A DNA stretch of 64,000 nucleotides from NCBI GenBank assembly GCA_965200835.1, contig OZ241390.1, forward strand, positions 2,256,297-2,320,296, written 5' to 3'. This DNA is from Acidimicrobiia bacterium (GTDB taxonomy: Bacteria; Actinomycetota; Acidimicrobiia; Spongiisociales; Spongiisociaceae). A program made the position numbers and the translations under genes. The notes below the pieces were generated by a model. That model was not told the origin of the DNA. It worked only from the letters and a program-made list of their open reading frames with translations, and did not search any database. Shown here piece by piece: positions 42,395-52,466 of the stretch (its first letter is position 1; the number at the start of each line of letters is the position of its first letter).

Positions 42395-43654
42395 GTGTTC
42401 GTAGACAACGTCCGCCTTCATCTTCGCTCCGGAAACGGAGGAGCAGGTGCGGTTTCCTTCATCAAGGAGGGACGCCGCCCCAAGGGGAAGCCCTCGGGCG
42501 GTTCCGGCGGGCGCGGAGGAGAGGTGATCGTCATCGCTGATCGATGGAAGGCCACCCTGCACTCGTATCGCCGCCGCCCGCACCGTTCCGCAGGCTCCGG
42601 GACCCATGGTTCGGCGGACCAGCGGCACGGAAGGCGGGGACGGGACCTCCATCTGCCGGTACCACTGGGGACCTTGGTGTACGACGAGCAAGGCACGCTC
42701 ATGGCGGATCTGGTCGAGCATGGTCAGCGGGTGGTGGTCCTCCCCGGCGGTCGGGGAGGGCGGGGCAACGCCGCGCTCGTCTCGACCCGGAACCGGGCGC
42801 CCACTTTCTGTGAGCAGGGAGAGTACGGCGAGTCGGCCTGGTTCACGCTGGAGATGAAGCTCATGGCCGACGCTGCTCTGATCGGCTTTCCCAACGCGGG
42901 TAAGTCCACCCTCATTTCGCGGGTGTCGGCTGCTCGGCCGAAGATCGCTGATTACCCGTTCACCACCCTCGAGCCGAAGCTAGGTGTGGTGGTGATCGGT
43001 GAGCGGGAGTTCGTCCTGGCCGATGTACCGGGTCTGATCGAAGGGGCGGCCGATGGAAAGGGCCTTGGGCACGAGTTCCTGCGCCATTGCGAGCGAGCCA
43101 AGGTGCTGGTGGTGCTGCTCGATCCTTCCCCGTTGCAGACCATCCCTCCCGAGCGCCAGTATGAGATCCTCCGCCGCGAGCTGAGGTTGCATGATCCCGA
43201 GCTGGCCGAGCGCCCCCAGGTAGTAGCGGTGACCAAACGGGACCTCACCAGGGCCGATCCGATCACCGGCCCCCTCCGCCGAGCGGTTCCCAACGTGATG
43301 GCGATCAGTTCGGTTACGGGGGAGGGGATCGATCAGCTGTTGCATCAGATCGCCGATGCCGTCGATCGAGCCGATCGGGACATGCCAGGCGCTGAAGGTT
43401 TCGTCCTCCATCGGCCGGTGCGTTCGGGCTTCTCGGTGGACCGCATCGATGGGGTGTGGGTCGTCGAGGGTCGGGCTGCCGAGCGGGCGGTGGCTATCAA
43501 CGATCTGACCATCGCCGAGGCAGCCGGCCTGGCGGCTCGACGCCTGGACCGCCTCGGAGTGGACAGCGCCCTGCGGCGGGCCGGCGCGCAGGAGGGTGAT
43601 GACGTGAGGATCGGAGACCATCTGTTCGAGTACCGGAGCGCTGGAGATGGCTGA
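42395..43654 (+). CDS. obg: GTPase Obg
   Basis: Gly-rich Obg fold 'SGNGGAGAVSF' and G1 'GFPNAGKST'. Confidence 0.9.
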   Translation: MFVDNVRLHLRSGNGGAGAVSFIKEGRRPKGKPSGGSGGRGGEVIVIADRWKATLHSYRRRPHRSAGSGTHGSADQRHGRRGRDLHLPVPLGTLVYDEQGTLMADLVEHGQRVVVLPGGRGGRGNAALVSTRNRAPTFCEQGEYGESAWFTLEMKLMADAALIGFPNAGKSTLISRVSAARPKIADYPFTTLEPKLGVVVIGEREFVLADVPGLIEGAADGKGLGHEFLRHCERAKVLVVLLDPSPLQTIPPERQYEILRRELRLHDPELAERPQVVAVTKRDLTRADPITGPLRRAVPNVMAISSVTGEGIDQLLHQIADAVDRADRDMPGAEGFVLHRPVRSGFSVDRIDGVWVVEGRAAERAVAINDLTIAEAAGLAARRLDRLGVDSALRRAGAQEGDDVRIGDHLFEYRSAGDG

Positions 43655-44768
43655 GCTACCAGGCGGCGCCCGCCCCAAGCCTCTTCCCGGGACTCCCGTC
43701 GTCCTGAAGGTGGGTTCGTCGAGCCTTACCAATGCTGACGGCTCGATCGATCAGGAGGCCGTGCTCAGGGTCATCGACCAGGTCGGCACCTTCTGGAGTG
43801 CCGGTTGTCCGACCGTGCTGGTCTCGTCGGGCGCGGTGGCCGCCGGGTCACCGGCCCTGGGTGGCCGGCCGACCGAGATCACCGGCCTGCAGGTGGCAGC
43901 AGCCATCGGGCAGACCCTCCTGATGGCCCGATACAGCCAGGCGTTCACGGAAGCCGGCCGCATCATCGGGCAGGTGTTGATAACCATGGACATCCTCTCG
44001 ATGCGCTCGCAGTATCTCCATGCTCGAGGCGCTCTGCAGCGGATGCTCGACTGCGGCATCGTTCCGATCGTCAACGAGAACGACACGGTGGCGGTGGAGG
44101 GTCTGAAGATGGGCGACAACGACCGGCTGGCCGCCATCGTGTCGCATCTGATCGCCTCAGGCATGCTGGTGATCCTCACCGACACCGACGGCCTCTATTC
44201 GGCCGATCCCCGGTCCGGATCAGGCGACCGTATCCCTGTGGTCCGCCACAGCGACCCGGTCCTGGACGGGCTGGTCGTCGGCGGTGCCGGTCCGATGGGA
44301 TCGGGAGGGGTAGCCACCAAGATAGAGGCAGCCCGGATGGCCGCCTGGTCCGGAATCCCCACCGTGATCGTCCGTTCCACCCGGCCCGGTGTGATCCAGG
44401 AGATCATCGAGGGCAGGGCAACCGGAACCTATGTCCTACCCGGCCGGTCGCGACTCTCGGCCCGCAAACTCTGGCTGGCGTTCGGCCAGCAGCCGAAGGG
44501 CAGGGTAGGGATCGACGATGGTGCGGTCCGAGCACTCGTGGAACGAGGTAGCTCCCTGCTCTCGGTAGGAGTGACGGGGGTAGAGGGTGAGTTCATCCGC
44601 GGGGCGGCGGTGGAGGTCCGCGGTCCGGAAGGTGGGCTGGTAGGCAAGGGCCTGGCGAGCACCGGATCATCAGAGATGCGGCGGTGGATGGGCAAGCGAT
44701 CGGCCGAGATAGGCGCGGTAGGCGAGGTGATCCACAGGGACCAGCTGGTAGTCCTGCTCAGAGGGTGA
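43647..44768 (+). CDS. proB: glutamate 5-kinase (with PUA domain)
   Basis: 'VVLKVGSSSLT' and 'IVNENDTV' amino-acid-kinase motifs. C-terminal PUA domain. Confidence 0.9.
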   Translation: MAELPGGARPKPLPGTPVVLKVGSSSLTNADGSIDQEAVLRVIDQVGTFWSAGCPTVLVSSGAVAAGSPALGGRPTEITGLQVAAAIGQTLLMARYSQAFTEAGRIIGQVLITMDILSMRSQYLHARGALQRMLDCGIVPIVNENDTVAVEGLKMGDNDRLAAIVSHLIASGMLVILTDTDGLYSADPRSGSGDRIPVVRHSDPVLDGLVVGGAGPMGSGGVATKIEAARMAAWSGIPTVIVRSTRPGVIQEIIEGRATGTYVLPGRSRLSARKLWLAFGQQPKGRVGIDDGAVRALVERGSSLLSVGVTGVEGEFIRGAAVEVRGPEGGLVGKGLASTGSSEMRRWMGKRSAEIGAVGEVIHRDQLVVLLRG

Positions 44769-45062
44769 AACCGCGTCGGCAAGCAGTGACGGGGGCCGGA
44801 CCGCGGGGCGCCTTAGGAGCCGGAACCTGGTGCCACTGATTCTGCGCCCTGATCAGCTGTTGGCTACATTTTCCTTGCGCTGAAGCTTCGCCGGGGCCGA
44901 GAAAAGCGATACTGTGATCACTCTCACATGGTAGAGTCAGCTGGTGATTCTAGCTTTGCCAGCGGCTGATGGAACGGTGACATTACGTTGTGAAAGTAGG
45001 TTGCTTCCTTTGGAGGGGGCATTACGAGGGCCAGTATTGCTGGAAGTACGGAGCCTCCTACT

Positions 45063-46981
45063 GTGGGTGGTCTGAGTAAGTTATCTGGCCTCATATCGTT
45101 GCTTGTAGCAGTTGTCGTTGCTTACGGCTTCTCGGTCCCGCTTTTCAGCCTCTCTCCCCTTCAGGCAAAGAGCGCTGGTTCTTTTGACTTAGCCGTTTCT
45201 TACTCTTCGAGGTGTCCGAACGGCGGCCGAAGCTGACTTGCCTGATGTTGTCGGTAGCTACTGGGATGTCAATGAGGACTCAGTTCATTATTCAAGCATC
45301 TCGACTCTCACCAGCCTCGGTGTGTTTCGGGATACTGGGTGTGGGAACGACCGGTTTTGTCCCGAAGAGCCGCTTCTACGTTGGGTGATGGCTGTTTGGT
45401 TAATTCGGATGCTCTATGAGGAGCCTTCGGATGCTGGTAATACTTTCTACGATGTAGATGATTGGGAATGGTGGGCAGGGCAGGTGGTTCGTCTTGGTGA
45501 GGTGGGTGTAACTTCGGGTTGTAGCGCCGATCCTCCGTACTTTTGTCCTGACTATGCGGTCACTCGTGCTCAGATGGCTACGTTTCTGACTCGCGCATTC
45601 CGGCTCGATCCGGTAGCTTCTAGTGGGTTCGCTGACGTTGACCTAACGATGCACACGCTGACGGCATCGGTGCGTTGGCCGCTTCGGGTGTCACTGCCGG
45701 ATGTCGGACTGATCCTCCCAGGTTCTGTCCCAACCAGGCCGTGACTCGTGCTCAGATGGCTACGTTTCTGGCACAGGTCCTCAACCTCTCACCCATAGCC
45801 GACCAAGACCACGGTCGGGATAGTGCTCCTGACGACATTGTTGCTTACGGTGAGGTTAATGGGCGGATAGCCGCTGGTCTTTATCACTCTTGTGCCATCG
45901 GTCTCGACGACACGATAACCTGTTGGGGTTCTGATTATTCTGGTAAGACAGATACTCCTGTCGGTAAGTATAAGTAGGTTTCGGCCGGTGTTAGTCATTC
46001 GTGCGCTATCGACTTTGACGACACGATAACCTGTTGGGGTTTGATAGCTCTGGTGAGACAGATGCTCCTGTCGGTAAGTATAAGTAGGTTTCGGCCGGTG
46101 TTAGTCATTCGTGTGCTATCGGTTTTGACGACACGATAACCTGTTGGGGTTCTGACCATAATCTTGATGTTGATATTGGTGTTGGGGCCCTTGATGCTCC
46201 CCACGGTAAGTTTAGGCAGATAGTCACTTATAACCTTCATTCCTGTGCAGTCACCTTGGGTGGAACGATCCGATACTGGGGCAACAGATTTCGTGCTCGG
46301 GATGGTAAATATCGGCAGGTAACCGTCGGGAACGGGCATGCGTGTGCGATCACTCTGAGCGATACGATCGTCTGCTGGGGCGCGGACCGCTATGGTCAGC
46401 TTGAGGCTCCTGACGGTACGTTTGTGCAGATAGCCACTGGTGAGCATCATTCGTGTGCTATCACTGTAAAAGATGCGTTTGTCTGTTGGGGCCGTAACCG
46501 TTATGGCGAGACTAATGCCCCAGGCAGTGAACCCATAAGCAGTGTTCCTACGGTGACACTATTCGACATTACTGATGAACAAGACCGTGATCTACGTTCA
46601 TATTTGGACGGTGATAAGCATTTGATGCTGTGGTTCTTCGCACCGTGGTGACCGTCTTGTCGGGCTATGGCGCCCGTTGTTGAGCAGTTTGCTCAACAGT
46701 ACTTGAGTGAGGTGAAGGTTATCGTGGTTGGCAGCCAAGCTAGTTTGGAACGTGTTAAGACCGGTCTTGACGACCTCGACCTCGGCGTTGACAGCATTCC
46801 CGTATGGGACTCCGGAAACACTTTGTGGGGTATCTGGCCTCCAGCCAACAACCACCCACAGTTTGGCTCCTTTAGTAACAACTCCCGCTATGTGGTGTTT
46901 CGGCCCGATGGCTCTCTTCTGGACGGCGGCGTCTGGAACTGCCCAAGCTGCTCATCTCCTCCTTGGACACCCGAAGGGTAG
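45063..46981 (+). pseudogene. Decayed gene for a protein with a signal peptide, three SLH domains, an RCC1-like beta-propeller repeat array and a TlpA-like thioredoxin-fold domain
   Basis: Signal peptide 'LSKLSGLISLLVAVVVAYG..LQA'. SLH motifs '..AVTRAQMATFL..'. About six 37-aa repeats 'G(K/T)(Y/F)xQ(V/I)..GxxHSCAI..DxTIxCWG'. Redoxin 'WFFAPW[TGA]PSC'. There are at least three frame changes, two in-frame TAGs (45975-77 and 46085-87) and one in-frame TGA (46649-51). Confidence 0.6.
45868..46097 (+). repeat. Near-identical 110/111-bp tandem direct repeat, about two copies, inside the RCC1 array. Each copy ends in '..GGTAAGTATAAGTAG'.
   Basis: Copies at 45868-45977 and 45978-46087. They differ by a few substitutions and a 1-nt deletion. 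Both carry TAG where the repeat consensus has CAG (Gln). Confidence 0.7.
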
Positions 46982-47237
46982 CTTTAGCAATATGATGCGT
47001 GTGGTAGCAGTTTTGAACACATTTGTTTGGGGCTACTTTGTGTGGGGATACTGGTTGGTTGGCGTGTTGGTGTTCACGACAGGCATCTGTAGGGTTAACC
47101 ACGATCTGGCTCTTGGGTTTATCCGTAGAGTATGGCAAATTCAGTTTCATAAACAAGGTTCCGCGGGATAGGCTGGAGTCCTTAGAGGAACCGGCCTAGG
47201 TGGCTTTACATAAGCGAAATGGGAAATAGGGGTAGTT

Positions 47238-47876
47238 GTGATAGCGCGGACAAAAGTCTTGTTACTGGTAGTTGGGGCCGCCTCTGTGGTAGTTGGATTG
47301 GCTATTTGTTCCGGATCCTGACCGGCCGGACGAGGAGCCTGATGTTGAACCGAGAGCTATAATATATTCCGGAGTCGGAGGAACCAGATTCCCCGGATGT
47401 TGTCGTTCCAGAGCCAGAGGAACCTGACCCCCCGGTGGAGGTTGACAGGCCGGACCTCGAGGTTGATTATGTCCAGGTAGCCGCCGGTCACTAGCATGAG
47501 TGTGCGGTCACCTCAGGCGGGTACATTGAGTGCTGGGGCGGCGACGAGTACGGGGAGGTGTCGGGGGCGCCAACCGACCGCGGTTATATCCAGGTCTCCC
47601 CAGGGGCCGGGCATGAGTGTGCGGTCACCGCCGACGGGTACATTGAGTGCTGGGGCTATGACTACTACGGGCAGGTGTCGGGGGCGCCGACGGGTGGCGG
47701 TGATATTCAAGTCTCAGCCGGTTGGGAGCATGTATGTGCGATCAGATCAGGCGACGAGTACATTGAGTGCTGGGGCAGCGACAGGTGGTAGTGGCGCAGC
47801 TGGATATCTTGAGGGGTTCAACTGCGGCGTTGTGTCGGATTGGGGGTTTTCGTGTGTGATTACAGGCAATCCTTAG
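47238..47876 (+). pseudogene. Second decayed RCC1-repeat protein with a lipoprotein-type signal and an Asp/Glu/Pro-rich linker
   Basis: 'VIARTKVLLLVVGAASVVVGLAICSGS'. 'EPDPPVEVDRPDLEVD' linker. Repeats 'GxxHECAVTxxGYIECWGxDxYGQVSGAP'. Frameshifts and an in-frame TAG at 47492-94. Confidence 0.5.
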
Positions 47877-48777
47877 GTTGCGGGGTTGCCGGTCGGATGT
47901 GATTCGGGTGTGTTCGGCCGTGAAGGGTGGTGGGGTGTGCCGATCGTCTCTCTGGAGTTCTCCTGAGGTGGTTCAGGTAGTTCATGTTGGCGTTTGGGCC
48001 GTTGACGGTTGTGTGATAGCTTTTGGGAGCGAGCGCCAGGTCGCCATGGTGAACAACCTTTGAGTGTTCGTAGTTTTTGTTTTCACGTCGGTTGCGGTGC
48101 AGCGCGTAACCGTCGGGTCGATTCAGACAGAAGTAGTAGGTCTGTCTTCCAGTTAGGGCGAGCCCTGGCGCCCGTCATGGGAATGGGGCGGCCACGCAGC
48201 CGATGTGCGTCTTGGGATACACACCTCATAGAGAGTCAGGTGCTCGGCCGGCCGTGGGTACGCCATTGAGTGCACCCGCTGGCGGGGCGCCTGGCCACCG
48301 CCGCGAGTCGCGATCTTCGTCTCGTGCGCTCGAACAGCACACGTTTTGGGTAGCGGCCCTCAGTCGGTGTGGAGCCAGACGTTGCCACAAGCCGGTGATC
48401 AGATTCGACCACGAATGGTGTGGCTGGCGGAATGTAGACCACGTAACCCATATGATCGAACACCGAGCTACTGCTTGTCGGCTCCAGTTTGGGTGCCGTC
48501 GAAGACCCAGTCGGTTGAGACCAGGATCAGCTTCGCACCGACTTGTTCGCTGCCTTCGCGAGCACCCGGAAGCGCACCGGCAGAAGTCCTTTCAAGACTC
48601 ACGCTAGCCTCCGGGGCATCTGCCATCAGACTTGTCACGGTGCCGCTTCAATCCAATCACATGATCTTGACCGCGTCTGAGGTCGCTGAGAGGCCAGCGT
48701 CAGCCGGTATTTACGGTGCCTGCCGTAGAAGGAGAATCTTTGGAGATTGCTCGGCTGAAGTAGTCAGGAGACTAAGC

Positions 48778-49059
48778 ATGATCTCGGTTGATCTATCTAC
48801 AGTCCGTTGGCTATTGCCGGTTGTGGCGCTTGCTGTTGTTGCCCTAATCGGCTGCGGCGCCGACCCCGAACCGCCCGCGGCCACCGACACCGCAGAGCAA
48901 GAACCCATGTACGAGGCTGCCGACATGCCAGGGGAACAACCCGAAGCCACGGACACATCCGAAGAAGAAGCCGCTTCAACCGTGGACACTCCCAACACCG
49001 CCGACGGCGCATATATGCAGGTTTCGTCCAGGTTATGGTCCGGCCCGTTATTATGGTGA
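48778..49059 (+). CDS. small acidic lipoprotein (hypothetical)
   Basis: AGGAG Shine-Dalgarno 8 nt upstream of the ATG. Signal peptide plus lipobox 'VVALIGCG'. Asp/Glu/Thr-rich mature part. Confidence 0.45.
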   Translation: MISVDLSTVRWLLPVVALAVVALIGCGADPEPPAATDTAEQEPMYEAADMPGEQPEATDTSEEEAASTVDTPNTADGAYMQVSSRLWSGPLLW

Positions 49060-49219
49060 TAGTAACTATATGTATGCGGCGGTCGGTACGGGTGCGGGTG
49101 ATGGTACTTTGGCACAGTGGAAGTTTGTTGCATTGTAGTTGATGATGACTTTGATATTGAGGTGTTTGTTCCTTATAATCATGGTTCTGCACGGGTTATG
49201 TATAGGATTCGGTCTTTGA

Positions 49220-49816
49220 ATGATATTGGTGGTTGGGATGAGCGGCGGTGTTCGGATGTTGGAGCAGGTTAAACTGTCGGGGTGGTCTCGTTTGGGGGAT
49301 TCTTTATATGTTGATGGTAGTGAGTCGGTGCCTCGGTCTTTGGTGATTCAGGTTCACTATTCGGACTCGCAGTATGCGGAGGGGTTTCCGGTTGATCCTC
49401 TTTATCGAATGATGGGTGTGGATGCCGTCAGGATACGGTGTTCTTCCTGTGGTGGTGAGGATGAGGAGCCTGTGGATGAGGAGCCTCCGTCTCGGCCGCG
49501 GAATATGAGGCTGGTGCGGCAGGACAGTCCCCGCTCGGGGTATAGGTATCAGTATGTTATTAGTGTTGACCCGCCGGCCGATAGTGGTGGTGGTCCGGTG
49601 ACGGGTTATAGGTTTACGTTTGCCCGTGCTGGGCGTGGTGGTTCTTTTGTTAGGAGTGTCCCTAGGATTATTCTCCTTACGAAGTCAGCGACTAGATATA
49701 CCGTTTCGTTTTCGGCTGTTAATGAGTTTGGTACTAGTGATCCGATTACGCCGGCGTTTTACTACGCCTCGGTCTGTGACGGAACCGTCCGTGCCGACAC
49801 CTGGTCGACCGCTTAA
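49220..49816 (+). CDS. fibronectin type-III domain protein, N-terminal part
   Basis: FN3 signature 'PSRPRNMRLV..GYRYQYVISVDPP..VTGYRFTF..TRYTVSFSAVNEFGTSDP'. Overlaps the next ORF in another frame. This may be a frameshifted single gene. Confidence 0.45.
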   Translation: MILVVGMSGGVRMLEQVKLSGWSRLGDSLYVDGSESVPRSLVIQVHYSDSQYAEGFPVDPLYRMMGVDAVRIRCSSCGGEDEEPVDEEPPSRPRNMRLVRQDSPRSGYRYQYVISVDPPADSGGGPVTGYRFTFARAGRGGSFVRSVPRIILLTKSATRYTVSFSAVNEFGTSDPITPAFYYASVCDGTVRADTWSTA

Positions 49817-50837
49817 TCTTAAGGTTACGGTTGGGATTATGGATGCTGAAAGTCGGCGACTGCCTGTTACGTTGACTTGGAGTCGGCCATCTGGGTCCGG
49901 TGGTCGTGATGTTGATCACTATAAATTGCAGATTGTGGATGCGGGCGGTAGACGAGTGCAGGAGTGGACACCGAGGGAGATTAGGCATCCGGCCTATTTG
50001 TATCCGGATGTGTCAGGTAGTTATAAGGTTACAGTGTCGGCAGTGAACCGCGGCAGTGGCCGCAGTGTGATTGGTCCGTCTGTGAGTAAGCAGTTTACTC
50101 TGTCGGCCTGTCCGTATGATAAGCGGCTACTGACATCGAGGAATAGGCAGGTATCTGCTCGAAGGTTCCCTGTGGTTGATGTGAGTCGGCAGGTTTATAT
50201 TCAGGCTCGTCAAAAAAGCGGAGAGCTGCATGACCGTAAATTGATTCGTGGTGCTATAGGCAGCTGGGGTTGTGCCTGGGTTGGCTATGGGGCGGAGCTT
50301 AACAATAGAAGCTTTGTGAGGGATGACGCACTTGTTACTGGGCGTGCAATCGTCAAAGACGATGCGACAGTGTCGAATGGTGCTCTTGTTTCGGGTAATG
50401 CAGAGGTCAGCGGTCGAGCACAAGTTTATCAGGGCGCCAGGATAATAGGCAACAATCTTGGCAGGGATAAAGCGAGAGTTTACGATGATGCTCGAGTGTA
50501 TTGCAATGCCAAGATATCAGAAAATGCTACAGTTTACGGTCATGCTGAAGTGTATGGAGCAGCACAGGTTTATGGCGACGCGGATGTTCGCGGGGACGCT
50601 AGGGTGTATGGTAATGCTAAGGTTTACGGTGCCTTGACTATTGTAGAAGGTAACGCCCAGGTCTATGGGAACGCCGAAGTTTATGGTACGGACACAGAAA
50701 GTGTGAGGCGTTTGGAGACCGAGACTCGTATACGGGGCAATGCTGAAGGTCACGGAGAGGCTGTGGTCTTTGGCAAAGAGACGATCATTGAAGGCAGCGC
50801 CAAAGTTTATGGCGACGCGAGGCTTGGTAGCAGATAA
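49620..50837 (+). CDS. Protein with a second FN3 domain followed by about 25 tandem hexapeptide 'A-x-V-Y-G-x' repeats (beta-solenoid-like). The real start is probably an internal GTG near 49776, or the gene is frameshift-fused to the preceding ORF.
   Basis: 'PGRPLNLKVTV..LTWSRPSGSGGRDVDHYKLQI..SYKVTVSAVNRGSGRS' FN3, then 'GNAEVSGRAQVYQGARIIGN..ARVYGNAKVYGALTIVEGNAQVYGNAEVYG'. Confidence 0.5.
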   Translation: MPVLGVVVLLLGVSLGLFSLRSQRLDIPFRFRLLMSLVLVIRLRRRFTTPRSVTEPSVPTPGRPLNLKVTVGIMDAESRRLPVTLTWSRPSGSGGRDVDHYKLQIVDAGGRRVQEWTPREIRHPAYLYPDVSGSYKVTVSAVNRGSGRSVIGPSVSKQFTLSACPYDKRLLTSRNRQVSARRFPVVDVSRQVYIQARQKSGELHDRKLIRGAIGSWGCAWVGYGAELNNRSFVRDDALVTGRAIVKDDATVSNGALVSGNAEVSGRAQVYQGARIIGNNLGRDKARVYDDARVYCNAKISENATVYGHAEVYGAAQVYGDADVRGDARVYGNAKVYGALTIVEGNAQVYGNAEVYGTDTESVRRLETETRIRGNAEGHGEAVVFGKETIIEGSAKVYGDARLGSR

Positions 50838-50891
50838 GAACCCCTTGTTATCGATGAGCCTCATTATGATGGCAAACAGGAATTCGAATGG

Positions 50892-51345
50892 ATGGCCAAG
50901 GAAGCATACAACGTGGCCTACCGTCAAGCTAGGGACTATTTATCGGATTGCTTCCCCAAATTGTGGGCAACTATGAAGCAGGAAGATAAACATGACACAA
51001 TCCGGGTCGGCTTGGGTGAACCGTGGTCAAATACACGCGCACTCCCTGAGGAGATTCTCAAAATGGCGTGTGATAATTTCGAGTTCGCCGAAACGGATCA
51101 GGGAAATGGTGAACCCATGGATGGCCAGTTTTGGTTTTGTGGCACCATTTCTGAAAGCGGGTAAGCTCACAGGATACTTGAAGCTGATAAGGGACGGGAT
51201 CATACTCGCCTACGACGCAAAGAACGTGTGGGACAACATGAACCTGCTCACAGCCTTGACAGAAGCAAAAGGTATGATGATGAAGAACACCTTCGAACAA
51301 TGCCGTAAGGCATCAGAGGCATCAGAGCCATTCAAAGACTGCTAA
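50892..51345 (+). CDS. Hypothetical low-GC ORF(s): two overlapping frames (50892..51164 and 50992..51345) with no recognisable domain
   Basis: AT-rich codon usage typical of the island. No homology recognised. Possibly one frameshifted gene. Confidence 0.25.
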
Positions 51346-52466
51346 ACAGGCAGGCATGAAGAACACAGAAATCCGACACTACAACACGCCGATCATACTA
51401 TTCACCATAGTTTAGGCAAACCATCACCCAATGGCAGTTGACATTAGGCAGCCGGGCACCCTTGCCCTAGACGAAAACAGCGCCTACCGCGGTTACCACA
51501 AAGCAGACCGGGAAGACTGACACGCCGAACCTGCCATCGTCAAAGCGTCCGGCGACAGAAAGCAGACACCTGGCAATCCCTCTAGACAACACCATCACCC
51601 TGCTTAGGGAAAGAATGCTTCGCGGGTGGTAAGGGGTGGCCGAGCGGTGCACCACCGGCTATCCGATCACCCCGCAACCGATGGTCAGGACCAATGACGG
51701 CGGATCAGCCAGGCCGTCCGCCACTCGGGGTAGGTGGCGGAAGTGACGATGGTGGGTACCTTCGCTAGCCCGGAGGCAACAATCACCGCGCTGATCATAT
51801 AGCTGAAACGGGGAGCATCGCGCCGGGGACGGGTTGAGAATAAACGGGAGGCGGATTTCGGGTGCCGATCACTCACAGCTTCTGGTTCTGATGCCCGTCT
51901 CCGGAACTCGCCCCGCTGAGAACAGTGACTCGGCTCCGGCTATGGCAGACGGAACGGCGAAGATGATCAGATGGTCCGTGCCGTGACGGACGTCACACCC
52001 GAGGGAACGAACGCCCGATCACCTGGGACGATTCCCGCCATCACCGGCCCTGACGGAGGGGCAGATCCTTCAGAGTCGGTCTCACCGTCCTGGGAACCGG
52101 CTGGAACTTCGAGCTTGATCACTTCGGAGTTGGTATCGGAGAAGGTGGCTACCGAACGCAGGTTTGCCTCTCCTCACGAAGCGGAGGATCTGTGCCGCCG
52201 TCGCCAGGCTCGGTGAGACGGTTGTGCATGTTTGGCTGACCTCGTTGCGATCCGAGCGGTGACGCGGAGGCTATCCGGGGTAGTTCAGGGGGTTCCGAAC
52301 CTCCGGCAATGGGGTGCACACCCCGGAACGCCCCGCTGGTTGTCCCTTGGCAGACGCATTTCCGGCGGATACATTGGCCTTACGACCGGATCCGGCGCTG
52401 CGCGATGCCGGTGCGGGTCGTGGATGGCGAGCATTGGCTGCGCGGCGGGAGGCAGGAGGTGTCCTC

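What the first reader, a model, noticed from the sequence alone, without database searches (positions are those of the whole stretch)
45063..46981. SLH-anchored RCC1 beta-propeller fused to a TlpA-like redoxin, caught in the act of decay
Reading across frames reconstructs a single protein with this order of parts:
- A signal peptide.
- Three S-layer-homology domains, identified by 'FxDV..' and '..AVTRAQMATFL..' motifs.
- At least six 37-aa RCC1-type blades with consensus 'GK(Y/F)RQ(V/I)xxGxxHSCAI..DxTIxCWG'.
- A thioredoxin-fold TlpA/ResA-like domain carrying 'W-x-P-S-C' and a second 'NCPSC'.
An extracellular propeller tethered to a thiol-disulfide oxidoreductase on an S-layer anchor is an unusual architecture.

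The gene is broken in several ways. There is a frame change between the signal peptide and SLH1, and another inside SLH3. A 1-nt deletion lies in blade 2. Two TAG codons fall exactly where every other blade has Gln. One TGA sits on the first Cys of the redox motif. The two TAGs lie at the same position in two tandem 110-bp copies. This implies a CAG-to-TAG nonsense change followed by a tandem duplication or gene conversion of the blade.
Basis: seen in the sequence. Interest (0 to 1): 0.5.

Follow-up and report, generated by a model that had tools for sequence, protein, structure and literature searches.

The report
Dead surface selenoprotein gene, TGA misread
This is a broken copy of a gene for a cell-surface protein (wall anchor, beta-propeller, redox domain), but its TGA "stop" is a conserved selenocysteine codon with its own RNA signal, not decay damage; it belongs to a large selenoprotein family in Acidimicrobiales that gene callers routinely cut in two.

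Summary
Window 45063-46981 (+) reconstructs as a signal peptide, three SLH repeats, six RCC1_2 blades and a TlpA/ResA-like thioredoxin domain. It is interrupted by three frameshifts and two TAGs. Independent assemblies from other sequencing runs reproduce the first two frameshifts and the first TAG, so these three lesions are real. The gene is a pseudogene inside a low-GC island.

The TGA at 46649-46651 is not a lesion; it is almost certainly a selenocysteine codon.
- In 127 related domains from about 80 Acidimicrobiales genomes, 126 carry TGA at this position and one carries TGT.
- After the TGA, 90-109 further in-frame codons follow.
- Two hairpins lie directly downstream of the TGA. The second shows clear compensatory changes and rare-codon use.
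- A covariance model built without the window sequence finds the window element at E = 5e-12.

The architecture is also not unique. Intact SLH-RCC1-TlpA(Sec) genes exist in relatives, within a very common SLH-RCC1 "variable cargo" family.

UxxC selenoproteins of the TlpA type have been known since 2005. What appears new is the S-layer-anchored propeller fusion and the nearly all-selenocysteine Acidimicrobiales clade with its two-hairpin signal. The selenocysteine machinery of the host could not be checked.

The parts
45063..45236 (+). Start of the gene. GTG start, a signal-peptide-like N-terminus (frame 0), ending in an out-of-frame TGA at 45234-45236.
   Evidence: The signal peptide was judged by eye (basic n-region, hydrophobic core, LQA|KS); no predictor was available.
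45190..45236 (+). Frameshift 1 zone (+1, frame 0 to frame 1), between the signal peptide and SLH1.
   Evidence: Overlap of the two open frames. Three independent Logan assemblies match this stretch with no gaps.
45238..45790 (+). Three SLH repeats. SLH1 is about 45238-45410, SLH2 about 45445-45600 and SLH3 about 45618-45790.
   Evidence: Pfam SLH 35.8 bits on SLH3. tblastn of P0054, P0029 and P0002 shows the internal repeats. Homologues carry PF00395.
45643..45648 (+). Frameshift 2 (frame 1 to frame 0) inside SLH3: GAC-CT-AAC, with one base missing.
   Evidence: tblastn hits of P0054 and P0029 switch frame here. The site is identical in assemblies L086, L087 and L088.
45861..46519 (+). Six RCC1_2-type blades of about 37 aa (GK[YF][KR]Q..G..HSCAI..D.TI.CWG).
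   Evidence: Pfam RCC1_2 E = 6e-35. Blade list.
45906..46155 (+). 110-bp tandem repeat (2.3 copies, 92% identical) that carries both TAGs.
45975..45977 (+). TAG 1, at the position that is CAG (Gln) in blades 4-6.
   Evidence: Present in independent assembly L086, which reaches 45984.
46041..46045 (+). Frameshift 3. One base is lost (GGTTCTGA to GGTT-TGA) in blade 2.
   Evidence: Comparison of the repeat copies. tblastn frame switch.
46085..46087 (+). TAG 2, at the same position in the second repeat copy.
   Evidence: Identical in ENA contig L001.
46553..46978 (+). TlpA/ResA-like thioredoxin-fold domain with U-P-S-C.
   Evidence: Pfam Thioredoxin and Redoxin. NCBIfam. Nearest relatives are P0123, P0124 and L089.
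46649..46651 (+). TGA, read here as a selenocysteine codon (first residue of UxxC). It is not a lesion.
   Evidence: 126 TGA to 1 TGT in 127 homologous domains. The window-type relative L089 has LMLWFFAPW-TGA-PRC.
46661..46676 (+). SECIS hairpin 1: CGGGC-UAUGGC-GCCCG, starting right after the Cys codon.
   Evidence: Found in the minimum-energy fold of 113 of 113 Sec-form sequences. Compensatory pairs in close relatives and within register groups.
46679..46697 (+). SECIS hairpin 2: GUUGAGC-AGUUU-GCUCAAC. Its loop lies 34 nt after the UGA.
   Evidence: Covariation: CG 87, UA 23 at one pair; AU 99, GC 12 at another. Rare-codon use. Absent from the lone Cys form. Covariance-model hit at 46649-46703, 50.2 bits, E = 5e-12.
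46940..46951 (+). Second CxxC (C-P-S-C) near the C-terminus. It is specific to the window's subfamily.
   Evidence: P0123 has NCLGC and P0124 lacks it.
46979..46981 (+). True stop codon (TAG).
45000..52300 (.). Low-GC island (about 55% against 65%) that holds the pseudogene and other gene remnants. It lies between proB and the M23 peptidase/nadD genes.

Best explanation
The locus is the dead remnant of a gene for an exported, cell-wall-anchored selenoprotein.

**Ancestral product (inferred from domain families).** A signal peptide directs export. Three SLH repeats hold the protein on the wall. A six-blade RCC1-like propeller acts as a binding platform. A C-terminal TlpA/ResA-like thioredoxin-fold domain carries out thiol-disulfide chemistry, with selenocysteine as the attacking residue of a U-P-S-C motif.

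**How the UGA is read.** The UGA at 46649 is recoded to selenocysteine. The signal is an mRNA element directly downstream: two adjacent hairpins, the second with a conserved AGUUY loop. This is presumably the SelB binding site. The conservation of the codon and the element is shown here. SelB binding and selenium insertion are inferred.

**State in this genome.** The gene has been inactivated by five lesions:
- a +1 frameshift after the signal peptide;
- a 1-nt loss in SLH3;
- a 1-nt loss in blade 2;
- a CAG-to-TAG change that was copied into a neighbouring blade by duplication or gene conversion, giving two TAGs.

The selenocysteine codon and its signal are still intact.

**Origin.** The gene sits in a 7-kb low-GC island with GC3 about 50%, against about 80% for the host. 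This suggests it arrived by horizontal transfer and then decayed.
For: **Domains:**

**Lesions mapped against intact homologues:**

**Lesions are real.**
- Logan assemblies from SRR33960553, SRR33991095 and SRR33991084 match the window up to 45984, 45879 and 45680 with zero gaps.
- They differ from it by 3 SNPs each, so they are different data. They include frameshifts 1 and 2 and TAG 1.
- ENA contig L001 is 100% identical over 42881-51502.

**Selenocysteine.**
- Homologues P0003 and P0120 end at ...WLYSPY. Reading through their TGA gives xxC plus about 99 more in-frame codons of a TlpA-like fold.
- 42 database hits are almost all fragments cut at this site.
- The count is 126 TGA to 1 TGT across 80 Acidimicrobiales loci.
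- The reading frame after the TGA runs 90-109 aa in 125 of 127 cases.
- The window's own subfamily also has the TGA plus the hairpin (L089).

**SECIS.**
- Pair 33:47 is CG 87, UA 23, UG 2, with 1 broken. Pair 35:45 is AU 99, GC 12, GU 2, with 0 broken. None of 500 shuffles reaches the observed covariation score.
- The stem uses rare codons. Ala GCU occurs in 101 of 113 sequences (background 9.9%). Arg CGA occurs in 81 of 89 (background 12%). GCU switches to GCC exactly where the partner base is G.
- The Cys form lacks hairpin 2.
- A covariance model built without the window hits 46649-46703 at 50.2 bits, E = 5e-12. The next best hit scores 16 bits.

**Composition:** the window gene has GC 53% and GC3 about 50%. 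Intact homologues have GC 65-67% and GC3 82-87%. Host proB has GC3 79%.

**Standard code in the host:** TAG ends 18 and TGA ends 25 of 50 host ORFs.
Against: - No selA, selB, selC or selD gene is present in the 64-kb window or in the fetched flanks. Whole genomes could not be scanned, so decoding capacity is untested.
- Rfam has no matching SECIS family.
- The loop of hairpin 2 is 34 nt from the UGA. From memory of bSECISearch (16-37 nt), that is near the upper end of the range reported for bacterial SECIS elements.
- The core of hairpin 2 also encodes a conserved E-Q-F-A peptide, so part of its conservation is at the protein level.
- Only one Cys-form homologue was found.
- Frameshift 3 and TAG 2 are supported only by the window and one ENA contig. 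Whether those two assemblies are independent is unknown.
- The function of the redox domain is inferred from family membership. Gene neighbourhoods gave no hint.
Confidence: 0.85

Rival explanations
1. All six interruptions, including the TGA, are decay lesions, and the TGA arose from a Cys codon (TGT or TGC) by mutation.
For: The gene is clearly decaying in other ways. TGY to TGA is a single-base change.
Against: TGA occupies this position in 126 of 127 homologous domains, including the window's own subfamily. The downstream SECIS is intact in the window and scores 50 bits against a model built from other genomes. The only Cys form lacks hairpin 2.
Confidence: 0.04
2. The gene is intact in the organism, and the frameshifts and TAGs are sequencing or assembly errors. 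One matching contig is named ..._2x_l, which I read as roughly 2x coverage.
For: The name of contig L001 suggests low coverage (this reading is my inference). The blade repeats are hard to assemble, and short-read contigs all stop at the repeat.
Against: Three assemblies from other runs carry their own SNPs. They agree base for base across frameshifts 1 and 2 and TAG 1. The window and L001 agree on the remaining lesions. The lost C at about 46043 is not in a homopolymer. A substitution error repeated identically in two repeat copies is unlikely.
Confidence: 0.04
3. The locus is still expressed through recoding or as split products. Examples are a -1 slip at the in-frame G_GGU_UUG left by the deletion, TAG read-through, or an internal start at TTG 45238.
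For: The heptamer at 46038-46044 fits the X_XXY_YYZ pattern, and a -1 slip there would restore the blade frame (sequence reading). ORFs of 100-168 aa remain.
Against: Five separate lesions of different kinds would each need their own rescue. TAG is an ordinary stop in the host. No pyrrolysine genes or suppressor tRNA are present in the window. A product starting after frameshift 1 would lack the signal peptide that an SLH protein needs.
Confidence: 0.05

Closest known systems
UxxC 'thiol-disulfide isomerase-like protein', 'Redoxin family' and 'Prx-like thiol:disulfide oxidoreductase' selenoproteins (TlpA-like, cd02966, PF08534, PF00578), described from the Sargasso Sea in 2005 (PMC1088965) and listed in the 2026 review PMC13188914
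   Same: Thioredoxin fold of the TlpA/Redoxin type. Selenocysteine is the first residue of a UxxC motif. A hairpin lies just downstream of the UGA, with a G in a small apical loop. Cys-form homologues exist.
   Different: Here the domain is the C-terminal cargo of an SLH-anchored RCC1 propeller. The Acidimicrobiales clade uses selenocysteine almost exclusively (126 of 127). It has two adjacent hairpins. No NCBIfam selenoprotein model reaches its cut-off. I could not compare sequences directly with the published examples.
ResA / TlpA / DsbE (CcmG) extracytoplasmic thiol-disulfide oxidoreductases
   Same: Exported or membrane-tethered thioredoxin-fold reductases. The family's main branch aligns over nearly the whole DsbE/ResA profile.
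   Different: Scores are far below the family cut-offs (42 bits against 123 for DsbE). Selenocysteine replaces Cys. No ccdA/resBC neighbourhood was seen in four loci. The cis-Pro loop is not recognisable in the window copy.
SLH + RCC1_2 surface proteins of Acidimicrobiia
   Same: The same signal peptide, three SLH repeats and a run of about 37-aa blades. Identity is 40-48%.
   Different: Most carry other C-terminal domains (OpuAC-like, CAP, PLD, a peptidase-like domain) or none. Only a minority carry the Sec-TlpA domain (7 of 127 Sec-TlpA domains are fused to RCC1).
Bacterial SECIS of the E. coli fdhF type (from my own knowledge)
   Same: A stem-loop within about 40 nt downstream of the UGA, inside the coding sequence, with G and U in the apical loop.
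   Different: Two separate hairpins rather than one extended stem. There is no sequence similarity and no Rfam match.
NF041054 'ResA-like WAxxUGC motif-containing protein' (NCBIfam selenoprotein model)
   Same: A ResA-like selenoprotein. It gave a weak hit of 27 bits.
   Different: Its cut-off is 300 bits, and its motif is UGC rather than UxxC. This is not the same family.

Membership tests
Bacterial selenoprotein gene (Sec-coding UGA) | The in-frame UGA aligns with Cys in homologues (a Sec/Cys pair) | tested here: met
   L023 has TGT at the same column. With C substituted, the motif aligns to the WCxxC of thioredoxins.
Bacterial selenoprotein gene (Sec-coding UGA) | A conserved coding frame continues past the UGA | tested here: met
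   90-109 in-frame codons follow in 125 of 127 homologues. In the window, 109 codons follow before the TAG at 46979. P0123 and P0124 match this part at E = 4.7e-26 and 5.6e-10.
Bacterial selenoprotein gene (Sec-coding UGA) | A SECIS stem-loop lies just downstream of the UGA and is supported by covariation | tested here: met
   Covariance-model hit in the window at E = 5e-12.
Bacterial selenoprotein gene (Sec-coding UGA) | The genome encodes selA, selB, selD and tRNA-Sec | not testable with these tools
   None is present in the 64-kb window or in 60 fetched loci. Whole genomes could not be scanned.
Bacterial selenoprotein gene (Sec-coding UGA) | Selenium is incorporated into the protein | not testable with these tools
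   This requires 75Se labelling or mass spectrometry.
TlpA/ResA/Redoxin thioredoxin-fold oxidoreductase | The profile match reaches the curated threshold | tested here: met
   Pfam Thioredoxin 35.5 bits (cut-off 23.5) and Redoxin 28.1 (cut-off 26.6), with U written as C. The equivalog models of NCBIfam were not met.
TlpA/ResA/Redoxin thioredoxin-fold oxidoreductase | A CxxC-type motif at the start of helix 1, after a W | tested here: met
   FAPW-U-P-S-C.
TlpA/ResA/Redoxin thioredoxin-fold oxidoreductase | A cis-Pro loop and the full thioredoxin fold | tested here: inconclusive
   Only residues about 33-80 of the domain align to solved thioredoxins. The stitched sequence may not be submitted for structure prediction.
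SLH domain | Pfam PF00395 above its threshold | tested here: met
   35.8 bits against 20.8, for SLH3 only. SLH1 and SLH2 are supported by repeat and homologue alignment.
RCC1_2 repeat propeller | Pfam PF13540 repeats above their threshold | tested here: met
   118.6 bits against 22, with five stretches. Six blades were counted by eye. Closure into a propeller was not tested.
Pseudogene | The frame is disrupted relative to intact homologues, and the disruptions are reproducible in independent data | tested here: met
   Searches cover three of the five lesions. The other two are seen in two assemblies whose independence is unknown.

The most novel reading that the evidence does not exclude
Acidimicrobiales, including many sponge-associated lineages, carry a lineage-wide family of exported TlpA-like oxidoreductases. 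The family depends almost entirely on selenocysteine and has a distinctive two-hairpin SECIS. Some members display the selenocysteine domain on the cell surface, at the end of an S-layer-anchored beta-propeller. Gene callers split every member at the UGA, so the family is largely invisible in current annotation and is not covered by any curated model.
Probability: 0.4. Interest if true: 0.6.

Novelty: new variant of a known kind. Interest (0 to 1): 0.45.

Why it matters
- It corrects a natural misreading. A TGA on a redox cysteine should prompt a selenocysteine test before it is scored as decay.
- A cell-surface selenoprotein anchored by SLH repeats would place selenocysteine chemistry outside the cell. 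That would be an unusual setting for it.
- The family is large. There are 127 domains in about 80 species-level genomes, and many are tandem. Its members are systematically annotated as pairs of short hypothetical proteins, so selenium use in Acidimicrobiales and in sponge symbionts is probably undercounted.
- The covarying two-hairpin element gives a ready search model for these genes.
- The window copy shows that a selenoprotein gene can keep its UGA and SECIS intact while the rest of the gene decays.

Tried and rejected
- A word-index search with the redox domain alone found only the window's own fragments.
I therefore used the exact 104-aa C-terminal ORF.
- Scans for window-type relatives found nothing in genome contigs or in JGI metagenomes.
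- DNA for P0054 and P0123, the paralogue fragments on the 2.84-Mb contig, is not on record.
- Rfam gave no match in the island.
- No tRNA-Sec lies near 60 homologous loci.
- Neighbouring genes in four loci gave no functional hint: no ccdA or resBC.
- TAG recoding was rejected. TAG ends 18 of 50 host ORFs, and CAG sits at the equivalent sites.
- In-situ AT-biased decay does not explain the low GC. A GC3 of 50% with only five lesions fits a foreign origin better.
- The second-best covariance-model hit, in proB (16 bits), was judged to be chance.
- Literature searches found no report of SLH-RCC1 proteins in Acidimicrobiia, nor of selenocysteine in Poriferisocius or Aldehydirespirator.
Full report
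**1. The observation**

- A GTG at 45063, preceded by GGAG, opens a signal-peptide-like sequence in frame 0. This frame runs into a TGA at 45234-45236.
- Frame 1 is open from 45190 and carries SLH1, SLH2 and the start of SLH3.
- The protein continues in frame 0 from 45643-45648, and in frame 2 from 46041-46045.
- It ends at the TAG at 46979-46981.

Intact homologues used as tblastn queries switch frame at exactly the second and third of these points.

With the stops replaced, Pfam gives the following:
- RCC1_2 at E = 6e-35.
- SLH at 35.8 bits.
- Thioredoxin at 35.5 bits.
- Redoxin at 28.1 bits.

All four exceed their cut-offs.

The two TAGs (45975-45977 and 46085-46087) lie in a 110-bp tandem repeat of 2.3 copies at 92% identity. 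They sit where blades 4-6 have CAG.

**2. Are the lesions real?**

The window's proB protein is found on 20 contigs from many samples.
- Three Logan assemblies from other sequencing runs (L086, L087, L088) align to the window up to 45984, 45879 and 45680.
- They align without a single gap. Each carries three SNPs, so they are separate data.
- They cover frameshift 1, frameshift 2 and, for L086, the first TAG.

An ENA contig (L001) is 100% identical over 42881-51502.

Exact-sequence look-ups place the window's island ORFs and flanking genes on a 2,835,419-bp NCBI/ENA contig. That contig is probably the window's source.

The deleted C at about 46043 is not in a homopolymer. The host uses TAG and TGA as ordinary stops, in 18 and 25 of 50 ORFs.

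The gene is therefore truly broken, by three frameshifts and two TAGs.

**3. The TGA is a selenocysteine codon**

*First clue.* Two SLH-RCC1 homologues, P0003 and P0120, end at ...LLLWLYSPY. That is the residue just before the redox motif. On their contigs the stop is TGA. It is followed in frame by xxC and about 99 further codons of a TlpA-like fold. The same holds for three more copies.

*Database fragments.* A profile search returned 42 hits. Almost all are short fragments that either end at ...W[FL][WY][SA]P[YHLF] or begin just after the motif.

*Genome survey.* A scan of one genome per species found 80 loci, nearly all in Acidimicrobiales. The lineages include Ca. Aldehydirespirator, Ca. 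Poriferisocius, Ilumatobacteraceae, Sva0996 and many sponge-derived MAGs.
- Among 127 domain instances, 126 have TGA at this position and one (L023) has TGT.
- The frame after the TGA runs 90-109 codons in 125 of 127 cases.

*The window's own subfamily.* This subfamily is marked by a second, C-terminal CxxC. A JGI contig (L089) reads SLH...DRDLRSYHSGDRDLMLWFFAPW-TGA-PRC...EQFAQ and then continues into P0124.

**4. The RNA signal**

I aligned 113 distinct sequences from the UGA to +72 nt, with no gaps. Two hairpins follow the UxxC codons.

*Hairpin 2* (columns 32-37 paired with 43-48; loop AGUUC, AGUUG or AGUUU):
- Pair 33:47 is CG in 87 sequences, UA in 23 and UG in 2, with 1 broken.
- Pair 35:45 is AU in 99, GC in 12 and GU in 2, with none broken.
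- None of 500 shuffles reaches the observed covariation score. Sliding the partner columns drops pairing from 90% to 11-42%.
- The stem is built from rare codons. Ala is GCU in 101 of 113 sequences, against a background of 9.9% in the same genes. It switches to GCC in exactly the 12 sequences whose partner base is G. Arg is CGA in 81 of 89, against a background of 12%.

*Hairpin 1* begins right after the Cys codon.
- It is present in every minimum-energy fold, but in several registers.
- It shows U-A, A-U and C-G swaps among close relatives and within register groups.

*Controls.*
- The lone Cys form keeps hairpin 1 but has lost hairpin 2.
- A covariance model built from 39 sequences, without the window, finds window 46649-46703 at 50.2 bits and E = 5e-12. 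The next hit in 64 kb scores 16 bits.
- In the window the hairpins are CGGGC-UAUGGC-GCCCG (46661-46676) and GUUGAGC-AGUUU-GCUCAAC (46679-46697).
- Rfam has no matching family.

**5. What the gene was, and what it is now**

SLH plus RCC1_2 is a very common surface-protein design in this group. The search gave 1843 hits, with many different C-terminal domains.
- The Sec-TlpA domain is one such cargo. Seven of the 127 domains are fused to RCC1, and six of those also have SLH.
- One domain follows SLH alone.
- The remainder are short secreted or lipoprotein forms, often as tandem genes.

Intact fused genes have the composition of their hosts: GC 65-67% and GC3 82-87%. The window copy has GC 53% and GC3 about 50%, in a host whose proB has GC3 79%.

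The window copy lies in a low-GC island of 7.3 kb. The island also holds a second RCC1 remnant and an fn3/beta-solenoid ORF. Its flanks are core genes: obg-proB on one side and M23 peptidase, nadD and rsfS on the other. The rest of the window is housekeeping and has no sel genes.

The best reading is that a foreign surface-selenoprotein gene decayed after arriving in this genome. That reading is an inference.

**6. Function**

The following are shown:
- the domain families;
- the UxxC motif;
- the export signals in relatives.

The following are inferred:
- that the domain acts as an extracytoplasmic thiol-disulfide oxidoreductase;
- that SelB reads the hairpins.

The family's main branch aligns over nearly the whole DsbE/ResA profile, but far below the cut-offs. 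No selenoprotein-specific NCBIfam model fits it. Gene neighbourhoods were uninformative.

**7. Comparison with what is known**

UxxC selenoproteins of the TlpA/Redoxin type have been known since the Sargasso Sea survey (PMC1088965). They are listed in a 2026 review under cd02966, PF08534 and PF00578 (PMC13188914). The kind is therefore known.

I found no report of any of the following in the searched library:
- the SLH-RCC1 fusion;
- selenocysteine use in these Acidimicrobiales lineages;
- this two-hairpin element.

A 2026 preprint reports universal selenocysteine machinery in a different order of the same class, Actinomarinales. That makes selenocysteine use in Acidimicrobiia plausible, but it says nothing about these genomes.

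**8. Limits**

- The selenocysteine machinery of the host and its relatives could not be checked.
- Frameshift 3 and TAG 2 rest on two assemblies whose independence is unknown.
- The signal peptide was judged by eye.
- No structure could be predicted for the stitched domain.
- I could not compare the family directly with the published example accessions.

**9. Verdict**

The locus is a real pseudogene. However, its most eye-catching "lesion" is the native selenocysteine codon of a large, poorly annotated family. I rate it a new variant of a known kind, of moderate interest.

Noticed in passing
window 45000-52300: A low-GC island (about 55% against 65%) lies between proB and the M23 peptidase/nadD genes. 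No tRNA or integrase sits at its borders. Besides the pseudogene it holds several short or overlapping ORFs that look like gene remnants.
   Followed up: partly
window 47493-47791: A second RCC1_2 remnant. It is a 117-bp tandem repeat (2.5 copies, 78%) that encodes a 77-aa ORF with two blades (GHECAVTADGYIECWG...). Pfam RCC1_2 gives E = 3e-10.
   Followed up: partly
window 49220-50837: Two overlapping ORFs of 198 and 405 aa. The longer one has a weak fn3 match and YdcK-type beta-solenoid/hexapeptide repeats. They may be one frameshifted surface-protein gene.
   Followed up: no
window 46038-46044: The 1-nt deletion in blade 2 leaves an in-frame G_GGU_UUG, which fits the X_XXY_YYZ slippery pattern. 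A -1 slip there would restore the blade's frame. This is probably coincidence.
   Followed up: no
2,835,419-bp NCBI/ENA contig (proteins P0054, P0123): The same chromosome seems to carry a paralogue. P0054 is SLH-RCC1, 439 aa; it starts inside SLH1 and ends at CWGG. P0123 is an 88-aa tail of a window-type redox domain at 64% identity. As called, this paralogue also looks fragmented. Its DNA could not be fetched.
   Followed up: partly
L004:6001-7923: One otherwise intact SLH-RCC1-TlpA(Sec) copy has a frameshifted tail, with 72 instead of 98 codons after the UGA. Its neighbouring genes are split in two. This is either another decaying copy or a lower-quality contig.
   Followed up: no
P0142 (595-bp ENA contig); also L003:7879 and 8747, L055, L067 and others: Sec-TlpA genes often occur as tandem pairs. 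P0142 joins the tail of one domain to the head of the next in a single frame and ends at the next UGA. That hints at proteins with more than one selenocysteine.
   Followed up: no
window 44903-44904, 45510, 43027: Assemblies from other samples differ from the window by AA>GG just upstream of the pseudogene, by A>G inside it, and by A>G in obg. These are strain-level variants of an organism seen in at least 20 contigs.
   Followed up: partly
window 43879-43938: The second-best hit of the SECIS model (16.3 bits, rough E = 0.0075) lies inside proB. There is no in-frame TGA context, so I judged it to be chance.
   Followed up: no
L023:3097: The only Cys-form member (TGT) keeps hairpin 1 but has lost hairpin 2. 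Its peptide there is IEELAQ instead of xEQFA[RQ]. It is a natural control and would be useful for experiments.
   Followed up: partly
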